Below, piece by piece: positions 2,152-6,162 of a DNA stretch of 64,000 bases. Below the pieces are notes generated by a model. It searched no databases. It had not been told where the DNA came from and saw only the letters and a program-made list of their open reading frames with translations. Each line of letters opens with the position of its first letter. Position 1 is the first letter of the stretch. A program made the position numbers and the translations under genes. Source of the stretch: Escherichia phage vB_EcoM_WL-3; the sequence record MT968995.1; one strand, given 5' to 3'.

Positions 2152-2502
2152 TTAATATTCTTTTAAAGCATCAACCTGTTCACGACGTTTACGCCATAAA
2201 TCAATTGCTTCATACGCAGATTCAGCATTTCGAATTGGACGACATTTATATAAAGACTTGTGATTTTGATATTGTGTAGATAACGGAATTTTATCTAAAA
2301 GGTCTTTACGTTCAAAATATTCGTAACCATCTAAACCAAATGAACGATTTTTGAGAAATTGCCAATGACCATATTCGTTTTCGACATAAACATAATCTGC
2401 ATGCTGATAAAGCAAATTAATTACACGTTCAGAAATAACAGTGTCATTGTGATTAAAATAGAATGTTAAATCATGAACTACTAAATAAACATTACCTTTC
2501 AT
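2152..2502 (-). CDS. hypothetical protein
   Basis: 116-aa ORF with ATG start, between stable-RNA region and tRNA-Arg. Confidence 0.45.
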   Translation of the reverse strand: MKGNVYLVVHDLTFYFNHNDTVISERVINLLYQHADYVYVENEYGHWQFLKNRSFGLDGYEYFERKDLLDKIPLSTQYQNHKSLYKCRPIRNAESAYEAIDLWRKRREQVDALKEY

Positions 2503-2520: not shown

Positions 2521-2596
2521 TGGTCGAGGCAGTAGGGATCGAACCTACGACCTAGGACTTAGAAGGTCCTTGCTCTTCCTTCTGAGCTATGCCTCG
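2521..2596 (-). tRNA. tRNA-Arg (anticodon UCU)
   Basis: Hand-folded cloverleaf: acceptor CGAGGCA/TGCCTCG, anticodon loop CTTCTAA, T-loop TTCGATC, encoded CCA. Confidence 0.8.
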
Positions 2597-2600
2597 GATT

Positions 2601-2675
2601 TGGCGGACATGATAGGATTCGAACCTATAACCAATCGCTTAACAGGCGATCGCTCTGCCATTGAGCTACACATCC
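2601..2675 (-). tRNA. tRNA-Asn (anticodon GUU)
   Basis: Acceptor GGATGTG/CATGTCC, anticodon stem ATCGC/GCGAT, loop CTGTTAA, T-loop TTCGAAT, CCA. Confidence 0.75.
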
Positions 2676-2778: not shown

Positions 2779-2853
2779 TGGTGGCCCTGGGTGGAATTGA
2801 ACCACCATCTGGCGATTATGAGTCGCTTGCTTGAACCTTCCAGCTACAGGGCC
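2779..2853 (-). tRNA. tRNA with CAU anticodon (Met, or Ile if C34 is modified)
   Basis: Acceptor GGCCCTG/CAGGGCC, anticodon loop CTCATAA, T-loop TTCAATT, CCA. Confidence 0.7.
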
Positions 2854-2861
2854 AAATTTTC

Positions 2862-3347
2862 TTATTTTATGTAATATTTATTTAAAAACTTTCTAGCTTG
2901 AGTATGGCTAACATTTATAGCATTTGCATAATTTTTAATAAAACCTCGTTCATCCATATTAAAACTTTCTAATATTTTTAATCGTCTAGCTATCTCATCT
3001 TGACTTAAAGTACTTGCATTATTTTTAGAAATTTTTTCTAAGGACTGTACTGAGTGTTTTCGACCATTAAAATTAAAATTTTTAGATTTTGGAGGAAATC
3101 TATCATTTAGTCTCGCATCTTTTGTATTTTGATTATTAGTTGCGCAATATATGTTATTTAATGAGTATGGTCCTTTATCACCAAAACGGCACATACAGTA
3201 TTCATGACCCTTTCTTCCACGCTTATCATAATTTCCCGTTGATTTCCACCAATGCAACCACTCATCAAAAGTTAAATTCCATTCAATGTTTCTACGTATA
3301 GCAGAATTCCGCTGAGAAATATATTTTGCATAATCTTCTTTCATCAC
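2862..3347 (-). CDS. free-standing HNH-like endonuclease candidate inside the tRNA cluster (position of T4 segB)
   Basis: 161-aa ORF; block GHEYCMCRFGDKGPYSLNNIYCATNNQN resembles phage His-Me-finger/HNH motifs; no GIY-YIG motif. Confidence 0.45.
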   Translation of the reverse strand: MMKEDYAKYISQRNSAIRRNIEWNLTFDEWLHWWKSTGNYDKRGRKGHEYCMCRFGDKGPYSLNNIYCATNNQNTKDARLNDRFPPKSKNFNFNGRKHSVQSLEKISKNNASTLSQDEIARRLKILESFNMDERGFIKNYANAINVSHTQARKFLNKYYIK

Positions 3348-3391
3348 AAATTTCTCTACTTATTACATACACTAAGCTAAATCAGCAAAAC

Positions 3392-3481
3392 TGGCGGAGG
3401 CGATAGGATTTGAACCTATGAGTCGCCGGAGCGACTGCCGGTTTTCAAGACCGGTGCATTAAACCACTCTGCCACGCCTCC
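3392..3481 (-). tRNA. tRNA-Ser (anticodon UGA), type II
   Basis: Acceptor GGAGGCG/CGCCTCC, anticodon stem CCGGT/ACCGG, loop CTTGAAA, long variable arm, T-loop TTCAAAT, CCA. Confidence 0.8.
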
Positions 3482-3483
3482 AG

Positions 3484-3557
3484 TCTCCATACAAGGATTT
3501 GAACCTTGGACCTCCTGATCCCAAATCAGGCGCTCTACCAAACTGAGCTACACGGAG
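3484..3557 (-). tRNA. tRNA-Pro (anticodon UGG), CCA not encoded
   Basis: Acceptor CTCCGTG/TATGGAG (with GU pairs), anticodon loop TTTGGGA, T-loop TTCAAAT; 2 nt from tRNA-Ser. Confidence 0.75.
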
Positions 3558-3567
3558 TAAATTAAAT

Positions 3568-3641
<74 letters not shown>

Positions 3642-3646
3642 AAATT

Positions 3647-3733
3647 TGGTGCGAGAAGTGGGACTCGAACCCACAAGGAAATCATTCCGCAGCATTTTAA
3701 GTGCTGTGCCTTTACCAATTTGGCCATTCTCGC
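3647..3733 (-). tRNA. tRNA-Leu (anticodon UAA), type II
   Basis: Acceptor GCGAGAA/TTCTCGC, anticodon stem CAGCA/TGCTG, loop CTTAAAA, long variable arm, T-loop TTCGAGT, CCA. Confidence 0.8.
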
Positions 3734-3734
3734 G

Positions 3735-3807
3735 CTGGGAATAAAGGACTCGAACCTTTGCATCCTGGAATCAAAATCCAGTGCCTTACCAACTTGGCTA
3801 ATTCCCA
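3735..3807 (-). tRNA. tRNA-Gln (anticodon UUG), CCA not encoded
   Basis: Acceptor TGGGAAT/ATTCCCA, anticodon stem CTGGA/TCCAG, loop TTTTGAT, T-loop TTCGAGT. Confidence 0.75.

Positions 3808-5477: not shown

Positions 5478-6162
<685 letters not shown>

What the first reader, a model, noticed from the sequence alone, without database searches (positions are those of the whole stretch)
2862..3347. HNH-like ORF splitting the tRNA cluster, possibly with a substituted catalytic histidine
A 161-aa ORF separates the Gln-Leu-Gly-Pro-Ser tRNAs from the CAU-Tyr-Asn-Arg tRNAs, the position I recall for the GIY-YIG endonuclease segB in T4. Its conserved block GHEYCMCRFGDKGPYSLNN...ATNNQN looks like small phage HNH proteins, not GIY-YIG. 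The usual G-H-Y core appears as G-P-Y, suggesting a degenerate or repurposed nuclease. Either way it is a mobile-element footprint at a recombination hotspot.
Basis: inference. Interest (0 to 1): 0.5.

Follow-up and report, generated by a model that had tools for sequence, protein, structure and literature searches.

The report
Histidine-less HNH-type homing endonuclease gene
A small selfish gene has replaced a threonine tRNA gene in this T2/T4-like phage; it probably encodes a DNA-cutting enzyme whose usual catalytic histidine is absent, as in the restriction enzyme PacI, joined to a DNA-binding tail shared with a rival endonuclease from the same tRNA cluster.

Summary
The ORF is real: 2862-3347, minus strand, 161 aa, with the likely start at the ATG at 3344. 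It is intact, and dN/dS is 0.07-0.14 among phage copies. It is the full-length form of T2L 'trna.1', published as function unknown and frameshifted in T2.

It sits between tRNA-Ser and tRNA-CAU in place of tRNA-Thr, whose first ~24 nt survive just upstream.

Position 60 is never His in 123 relatives. The canonical His position is an invariant Arg (R54). R54, Y61, N65 and N74 have the same spacing as PacI R93, Y100, N104 and N113. In PacI a loop tyrosine replaces the histidine.

The tail (NUMOD3 + HTH) is homologous to the tail of RB18-type SegB.

Full-length homologs lie in tRNA clusters of four phage genera. One is a clean insertion relative to a 99%-identical sister phage.

Verdict: a probably active, free-standing homing endonuclease, a new variant of a known kind. 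Nuclease activity is untested. In temperate phages the same domain occupies a fixed slot after cro, which does not fit homing.

The parts
2862..3347 (-). Whole ORF, 161 aa from GTG 3347. The likely real start is ATG 3344 (160 aa). It is the intact ortholog of T2L 'trna.1'.
3108..3347 (-). N-terminal domain, aa 1-80: two helices (3-18, 27-37) followed by a beta-beta-alpha unit. No Pfam or NCBIfam model covers it; PHROG 16521 is 'unknown function'.
3108..3200 (-). Beta-beta-alpha core, aa 50-80: beta-1 Y50-R54, loop F55-N65, beta-2 I66-T70, helix N71-L80. Invariant residues are R54, D57, G59, Y61, N65 and N74. The spacing R-x6-Y-x3-N-x8-N equals that of PacI R93/Y100/N104/N113.
3072..3107 (-). 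Linker, aa 81-92; lower model confidence (about 66-67).
3024..3071 (-). NUMOD3-like motif, aa 93-108 (NGRKHSVQSLEKISKN).
   Evidence: (ortholog P0002 scores 21.6 bits against a cut-off of 20.4; RB18 SegB scores 20.1)
2871..3002 (-). C-terminal helical HTH DNA-binding domain, aa 116-159, including the VSHTQARKF recognition-helix region. It is homologous to the tail of RB18-type SegB.
3354..3386 (-). Remnant of the tRNA-Thr gene: its first ~24 nt (GCTGATTTAGCTTAG ... TAAGTAGAG), interrupted by 9 extra nt. It lies directly upstream of the ORF start, and its 3' part supplies the probable ribosome-binding region.
   Evidence: (alignment with ime09, which has an intact tRNA-Thr here)
3392..3481 (-). 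Upstream flank: tRNA-Ser(UGA).
2779..2853 (-). Downstream flank: tRNA with CAU anticodon (T4 tRNA-Ile type). It starts 8 nt after the ORF stop codon.

Best explanation
The ORF is a free-standing homing-endonuclease gene that has taken the place of the tRNA-Thr gene. The protein has two modules. The head (aa 1-80) is a zinc-free His-Me finger (beta-beta-alpha-metal) nuclease domain of the PacI type. The general-base histidine at the end of strand beta-1 is replaced by an invariant arginine (R54). An invariant tyrosine in the loop between the strands (Y61) is proposed to act as base or nucleophile. N74 on the helix, perhaps with D57, is proposed to hold the metal ion. The tail (NUMOD3 motif plus helix-turn-helix) is the same DNA-binding module used by RB18-type SegB, a GIY-YIG endonuclease that also lives in T-even tRNA clusters. 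Proposed action: the gene is transcribed within the tRNA precursor. The protein binds tRNA-cluster DNA of a co-infecting relative that lacks the gene and cuts it. Repair from the ORF-bearing genome then copies the ORF and its flanking tRNA genes across. Replacing tRNA-Thr removes the target from the carrier genome. Shown here: the fold, the motif, the tail homology, purifying selection, and presence/absence insertion polymorphism. Inferred: nuclease activity, the role of the tyrosine, the target site and the mode of expression.
Against: There is no biochemical evidence of cleavage. Sequence similarity to PacI is not significant (hhalign E 0.23-0.34; no PDB hit by hmmsearch), so the link rests on fold and motif register only. 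Foldseek E-values against the PDB are all above 0.1. PacI's two Cys4 zinc sites are absent. The residue before the arginine is C, A, S or G, not the Asp that is a metal ligand in canonical HNH sites. The commonest architecture of this domain (sigma70-region-4 HTH followed by the domain) sits at a fixed position after cro in 5 of 5 temperate-phage immunity regions, overlapping cro by 4 nt in four of them. That is not homing behaviour and hints at a non-nuclease or regulatory use of the fold. Fold hits include T4 Srd-type 'anti-sigma factor' proteins. In T4 x T2L crosses the (frameshifted) T2L copy was lost to SegB (PMC2330249). No dedicated promoter or RBS-masking hairpin was found.
Confidence: 0.6

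Rival explanations
1. The domain is a catalytically dead His-Me finger kept as a DNA- or protein-binding module, as in the SMAD MH1 domain. On this view the phage protein is a regulator or host-takeover factor rather than a nuclease, and its scattered distribution reflects accessory-gene flux.
For: The canonical His and the Asp before it are absent. HTH-plus-domain relatives occupy the fixed slot after cro, like cII, in 5 of 5 temperate-phage contigs. Srd-type 'anti-sigma factor' proteins share the fold and the motif. Srd is described in the literature as an RNase E-stimulating protein, not a nuclease.
Against: Five polar residues are invariant and positioned exactly as in the PacI active site. 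PacI is active without the His. The tail modules (NUMOD3, HTH) are typical of homing endonucleases. A clean insertion polymorphism occurs between sister phages. Short homologs lie next to HNH genes in structural modules.
Confidence: 0.2
2. One reading: a degenerate HNH endonuclease whose catalytic His has mutated to Pro (G-H-Y to G-P-Y), making this a decaying footprint of a former mobile element.
For: The His is indeed missing. T2 copies are frameshifted.
Against: Position 60 is never His in 123 relatives. In the model the His position is R54. The window copy is intact, and dN/dS is 0.07-0.14. The motif is invariant across the 123 aligned relatives, drawn from a family of several thousand 50%-identity clusters.
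Confidence: 0.03
3. The protein acts on RNA or on tRNA biology (for example processing of the tRNA precursor, or countering tRNA-targeting defences). This would explain why full-length homologs always lie inside tRNA clusters.
For: Full-length homologs lie in tRNA clusters in four genera. The stop codon lies 8 nt or less from, or overlaps, the next tRNA gene. T-even tRNA arrays are implicated in defence evasion (PMC13096335).
Against: SegB shows the same association and is a proven DNA homing endonuclease that cuts tRNA genes (PMC2330249). The tail is a DNA-binding NUMOD3-HTH module shared with SegB-like proteins. Domain relatives with other tails lie outside tRNA clusters.
Confidence: 0.07

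Closest known systems
R.PacI (PDB 3ldy/3m7k), His-Me finger group 20 of Jablonska et al. 2017
   Different: There is no significant sequence similarity. The two Cys4 zinc sites are absent. There is no Asp directly before the Arg; instead an invariant Asp lies at R+3. PacI is a homodimeric restriction enzyme recognising 8 bp, whereas this protein carries a separate NUMOD3-HTH tail and is a phage mobile gene.
RB18/RB51-type 'SegB-like' GIY-YIG endonuclease of T-even tRNA clusters
   Same: Homologous C-terminal NUMOD3 + HTH DNA-binding module (33% identity, pairwise E 2e-15), the same genomic niche (between tRNA genes) and the same free-standing arrangement.
   Different: The catalytic head is GIY-YIG (PF01541) instead of the beta-beta-alpha domain. 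It lies between tRNA-Gly and tRNA-Ser rather than between Ser and CAU.
T4 SegB (proven homing endonuclease that cuts tRNA genes)
   Same: Free-standing gene inside the same tRNA cluster, one slot away. It is the model for how such a gene spreads, together with flanking tRNA genes.
   Different: No detectable similarity to this ORF in either domain. T4 SegB shares its head, but not its tail, with RB18 SegB.
T2L trna.1 (AJ880101; Brok-Volchanskaya et al. 2008)
   Same: The same gene at the same site, about 95-97% identical.
   Different: The T2 copy carries two 2-nt deletions and was annotated as a 133-aa ORF of unknown function. The window copy is full length.
I-HmuI / T4 Mob-type HNH free-standing homing endonucleases, and the 'PacI-like' HNH genes of Skunavirus (PMC12724721)
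   Same: Phage free-standing genes with a His-Me nuclease head and modular DNA-binding tails. 'PacI-like' phage genes have already been named on the basis of HHpred matches.
   Different: I-HmuI and Mob proteins keep the D-H...N site and match the Pfam HNH/HNH_3 models; this ORF does not. The relationship to the Skunavirus PacI-like genes was not tested.
T4 Srd (phrog_1400, 'anti-sigma factor')
   Same: The N-terminal region carries E-R-FDNNVG-Y-IKG-N-x8-N with the same spacing. Links are weak at profile level (hhalign E 0.005; both proteins hit phrog_4592 in the same region) and at fold level (BFVD hits).
   Different: Srd is a 248-aa early protein outside the tRNA cluster, with a different C-terminal part, and is reported to act on host RNase E.

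Membership tests
His-Me finger (HNH / beta-beta-alpha-Me) superfamily | Two antiparallel strands followed by a helix, forming the finger | tested here: met
His-Me finger (HNH / beta-beta-alpha-Me) superfamily | General-base histidine at the end of strand beta-1 | tested here: not met
   The residue there is R54, in 123/123 relatives. No conserved His occurs anywhere in aa 44-80.
His-Me finger (HNH / beta-beta-alpha-Me) superfamily | Structural Asn in the loop, and a metal-binding Asn or His on the helix | tested here: met
   N65 and N74 are invariant and lie in register with PacI N104 and N113. Metal binding itself was not tested.
His-Me finger (HNH / beta-beta-alpha-Me) superfamily | Match to a curated HNH-type profile (Pfam HNH, HNH_2-5, Endonuclease_7 and others) | tested here: not met
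   No nuclease family appears among the Pfam matches of the ORF, nor among the 25 families matched by most of its 123 relatives. There are only weak PHROG links to families annotated as HNH.
PacI group (His-Me group 20) | His replaced, with a tyrosine in the loop between the strands taking its role | tested here: met
   Y61 is invariant and lies 7 residues after R54, as Y100 does after R93 in PacI. Y100 is the only Tyr in PacI residues 94-104. The catalytic role is inferred.
PacI group (His-Me group 20) | Two Cys4 zinc-binding motifs flanking the finger | tested here: not met
   No conserved Cys set exists: C51, C53 and C68 are variable. The PacI CxxC segments at 63-66 and 109-112 have no counterpart.
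PacI group (His-Me group 20) | Significant sequence homology to PacI | tested here: not met
   hhalign E 0.23-0.34. hmmsearch of the PDB with the domain profile gave no hits.
GIY-YIG Seg endonucleases (SegB) | GIY-YIG catalytic domain (PF01541) | tested here: not met
   No Pfam match for the ORF, whereas RB18 SegB matches PF01541. There is no similarity to T4 SegB.
GIY-YIG Seg endonucleases (SegB) | NUMOD3 + HTH DNA-binding tail | tested here: met
   33% identity to the RB18 SegB tail. NUMOD3 scores above the cut-off in ortholog P0002. See also alignment A5.
Free-standing homing endonuclease genes | Sporadic presence, with an empty or alternative allele in close relatives | tested here: met
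   Of 953 records matching the tRNA-cluster query, only 23 cover at least 80% of it, and 25 records carry the ORF at 95% identity or more. ime09 has tRNA-Thr at this site instead. Phage 31 versus 44RR2.8t shows a clean insertion.
Free-standing homing endonuclease genes | Site-specific cleavage of the ORF-less allele, and ORF-dependent over-inheritance in mixed infection | not testable with these tools
   This needs biochemistry and phage crosses. The only published cross (T4 x T2L) used the frameshifted T2L copy, which was excluded by SegB (PMC2330249).

The most novel reading that the evidence does not exclude
The N-terminal domain defines a very large, so far unnamed, zinc-free Arg/Tyr variant of the His-Me finger. 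A profile search found about 5,500 clusters at 50% identity with E below 1e-10, and no Pfam or NCBIfam model covers the domain. On this reading it would be a distinct catalytic class of homing endonuclease that may cut through a tyrosine, possibly via a covalent intermediate. The same domain would have been recruited twice for other jobs: a gene fixed directly after cro in temperate phages, and T4 Srd. The T-even tRNA cluster would then be a place where two catalytic heads (GIY-YIG and this one) and two DNA-binding tails are shuffled combinatorially.
Probability: 0.35. Interest if true: 0.7.

Novelty: new variant of a known kind. Interest (0 to 1): 0.55.

Why it matters
This gives a function to a T2 gene left as 'unknown' since 2008, and to PHROG 16521. 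It adds a histidine-less, zinc-free HNH-type head to the set of catalytic modules used by phage homing endonucleases. It also shows direct head-swapping on a shared DNA-binding tail within one genomic niche. T-even tRNA arrays, and the SegB that lives in them, have recently been tied to escape from tRNA-cleaving bacterial defences. A second, unrelated nuclease class driving turnover of the same array therefore bears on how these arrays evolve. The domain family is large and unannotated, so a biochemical test of the tyrosine mechanism would annotate thousands of phage and prophage genes.

Tried and rejected
- **Sequence searches.** Pfam, NCBIfam and PDB searches found no nuclease match. The eL37 and ITK hits in the PDB are chance-level.
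- **Hef of phage U5.** It was considered as a possible relative and rejected, because the literature places it in the Vsr-like EDxHD family.
- **Expression signals.** No RBS-sequestering hairpin of the kind seen for segB and I-TevI was found (z-score -0.11). No promoter or terminator excess was found around the ORF.
- **Paralogs.** There is no second copy of the domain in the window.
- **OE5505 HNH gene.** The canonical HNH gene in the OE5505 tRNA cluster was suggested by a weak PHROG hit to share the tail, but it shows no significant pairwise similarity. That claim is dropped.
- **T4 SegB.** It has no similarity to this ORF.
- **Bridging to PacI through Srd.** An attempt to build an Srd-family profile returned only four close homologs.
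- **AlphaFold database search.** The afdb50 library was unavailable.
- **Caveat on profile A2.** It accidentally included sigma-region-4 HTH columns, so its PDB hits were all sigma factors. I re-ran with a domain-only alignment, A4.

Full report
**What is there**

The window is a T2/T4-like Tequatrovirus. The best DNA matches are 96-97% identical (ECO78, T2).

On the minus strand there is a run of nine tRNA genes: Gln, Leu, Gly, Pro and Ser at 3392-3807, and CAU, Tyr, Asn and Arg at 2521-2853. Between tRNA-Ser and tRNA-CAU lies the ORF at 2862-3347 (161 aa from a GTG). The following ATG at 3344 is where homologs are annotated to begin.

The ORF is the intact counterpart of 'trna.1' of phage T2L (AJ880101). 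The 2008 SegB paper listed that ORF as of unknown function (PMC2330249). The T2 copies carry two 2-nt deletions and are split.

Intact copies in the window, OE5505 and ECO78 differ mostly at synonymous sites, with dN/dS of 0.07-0.14. The protein is therefore maintained by selection.

**How it sits in the cluster**

I aligned the window with ime09, which lacks the ORF and is about 99% identical in the matching tRNA-cluster segments. The ORF occupies the place of the tRNA-Thr gene.

The first ~24 nt of tRNA-Thr (acceptor and D-arm strand, with 9 extra nt) remain at 3354-3386, directly upstream of the start codon. The rest of the tRNA is gone, and the stop codon is 8 nt from tRNA-CAU.

T4 has Ser-Thr-Ile(CAU)-segB-Arg.

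No promoter, terminator or RBS-masking hairpin stands out. Expression from the tRNA precursor transcript is an inference, by analogy with segB.

**The head domain**

No Pfam, NCBIfam or PDB sequence model matches it. PHROG 16521 ('unknown function') matches at E 1e-54.

Profile searches show a large family. There are 757 clusters at 90% identity. Among 50%-identity representatives, 7,512 score E below 1e-3 and 5,523 score below 1e-10. The search profile also carried some HTH columns, but a score that high cannot come from the HTH alone.

In a 123-sequence alignment W30, W34, R54, D57, G59, Y61, N65 and N74 are invariant.

AlphaFold2 gives a confident model (pLDDT 89): helices 3-18 and 27-37, strands 50-54 and 66-70, and helix 71-80. 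This is a beta-beta-alpha unit.

**The histidine question**

No conserved His exists anywhere in the finger.

In the model the end of strand beta-1, where HNH enzymes carry the general-base His, is the invariant R54.

I verified the PacI sequence against the PDB...CLGVD92-R93-SDSFEG-Y100-SPQ-N104-ARLACFIC-N113. The window protein reads C53-R54-FGDKGP-Y61-SLN-N65-IYCATNNQ-N74. The spacing R-x6-Y-x3-N-x8-N is identical.

hhalign picks exactly this register, but without statistical significance (E 0.23-0.34).

The literature states that PacI lacks the catalytic His. A tyrosine in the loop between the strands takes over as base or nucleophile, and the metal is held by an Asp and an Asn (PMC5714182, PMC4081073). 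Y100 is the only tyrosine in that PacI loop.

The window protein therefore looks like a PacI-type variant rather than a broken HNH. Two differences remain. The two Cys4 zinc sites of PacI are missing. The residue before the Arg is C, A, S or G rather than Asp, and an invariant Asp lies at R+3 instead.

**The tail**

Residues 93-157 are 33% identical to the C-terminal part of RB18-type 'SegB' (pairwise E 2e-15). That protein consists of GIY-YIG + NUMOD3 + HTH.

T4 SegB and RB18 SegB have almost the same GIY-YIG head but unrelated tails. The window protein matches only the RB18 tail. Two heads and two tails are thus recombined in one genomic niche.

**Mobility**

Of 953 phage records matching the tRNA-cluster query, only 23 cover at least 80% of it, which requires the ORF segment. 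Twenty-five records carry the ORF at 95% identity or more.

Full-length homologs in other genera are all inside tRNA clusters, but between different tRNA pairs:
- CkP1: Leu|Thr.
- Aeromonas phage 31: Asn|Tyr.
- S16: Gln|Arg.

Each abuts or overlaps the downstream tRNA gene.

The phage 31 copy is a clean ~480-bp insertion into the 13-nt Asn|Tyr spacer of its sister phage 44RR2.8t. The matched flanks are 99.1% identical overall and identical at the junction. 44RR2.8t instead carries a T5orf172/MUG113 gene in the next spacer.

Short relatives (domain plus C-terminal HTH) are opposite-strand ORFs wedged between portal and capsid genes, next to HNH_3 and zf-His_Me_endon genes. All this is the behaviour of free-standing homing endonuclease genes.

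**What does not fit**

The commonest architecture of the domain is a sigma70-region-4-like HTH followed by the domain. It is found immediately after cro in 5 of 5 temperate-phage or prophage immunity regions sampled, overlapping cro by 4 nt in four of them.

That is a fixed, operon-integrated position, like lambda cII, and not a homing pattern.

T4 Srd has the same motif spacing, weak profile links and fold-level links to this domain. It is known as a host RNase E effector.

The fold is therefore also used where a homing role is unlikely. This keeps open an inactive or regulatory reading and limits my confidence in catalysis.

**Comparison and novelty**

By fold and motif the protein works like PacI, and by life style like SegB. 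It fails sequence-level membership of the PacI family and lacks PacI's zinc sites.

It fails the His criterion of HNH in the same way that PacI does. It is not GIY-YIG.

'PacI-like' free-standing HNH genes have already been named in Skunavirus from HHpred matches (PMC12724721), so the general idea exists.

What is new is this:
- assignment of T2 trna.1 and PHROG 16521 to this class;
- the zinc-free Arg/Tyr motif being invariant across the 123 relatives examined, drawn from a very large unannotated family;
- the head swap with SegB-like proteins on a common tail;
- replacement of a tRNA gene.

I rate it a new variant of a known kind, with interest 0.55.

Noticed in passing
L006:2040-2786 (T4 srd; not in the window): The N-terminal region of T4 Srd carries E-R-FDNNVG-Y-IKG-N-x8-N, the same R-x6-Y-x3-N-x8-N spacing as PacI and this ORF. 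It hits PHROGs annotated as HNH endonuclease, endonuclease and endonuclease VII (E 1e-16 to 1e-7). Srd-type 'anti-sigma factor' models are fold hits. Srd may contain an unrecognised PacI-like finger.
   Followed up: partly
L010, L011, L012/L013, L014, L015 (gene at 6001 in each locus): Proteins with a sigma70-region-4 HTH followed by this domain lie directly after a Cro-like gene and divergent from a CI-like repressor in 5 of 5 temperate-phage contigs. Four of them overlap cro by 4 nt. This is a conserved cII-like slot of unknown function.
   Followed up: partly
L004:1210-1860 versus L021:1454-2119: RB18 'SegB' and T4 SegB share a GIY-YIG head that is 83% identical over the first ~117 aa, but have unrelated C-terminal DNA-binding tails. 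They also sit in different inter-tRNA slots (Gly|Ser versus Ile|Arg).
   Followed up: partly
L020:929-1483 (Aeromonas phage 44RR2.8t ORF121c): A T5orf172/MUG113-domain ORF occupies the Tyr|Lys spacer in 44RR2.8t and is absent from phage 31. Phage 31 instead carries the homolog of this finding in the adjacent Asn|Tyr spacer. These are alternative nuclease-like genes in neighbouring slots of near-identical phages.
   Followed up: partly
L002:3029-3637 (phage OE5505): A canonical HNH endonuclease gene (phrog_14736) lies where tRNA-Gln sits in the window. It is a third nuclease type in the same tRNA cluster. It has no significant similarity to the window ORF.
   Followed up: partly
window 2152-2502 (-): A 116-aa ORF lies immediately downstream of tRNA-Arg (T2L 'trna.2'; phrog_3355, unknown function). 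One GenBank record labels its ortholog 'endonuclease'. No support for that label was seen.
   Followed up: partly
window 2596-2601, compared with L002 and L003: The window has tRNA-Arg and tRNA-Asn 4 nt apart. OE5505, ECO78 and RB18 have a tRNA-His plus a ~115-nt spacer between them. The window also lacks tRNA-Thr. The tRNA content of the cluster varies among close relatives.
   Followed up: no
P0123 (455 aa): One representative protein matches the domain profile in five separate stretches, so it may contain tandem copies of the domain.
   Followed up: no
P0020 and P0024; PDB hits: JGI names two family members 'ribosomal protein L37E'. The window protein has only a chance-level match to eL37 (E 0.09), so this is probably a misannotation propagated from a basic, Cys-containing stretch.
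   Followed up: no
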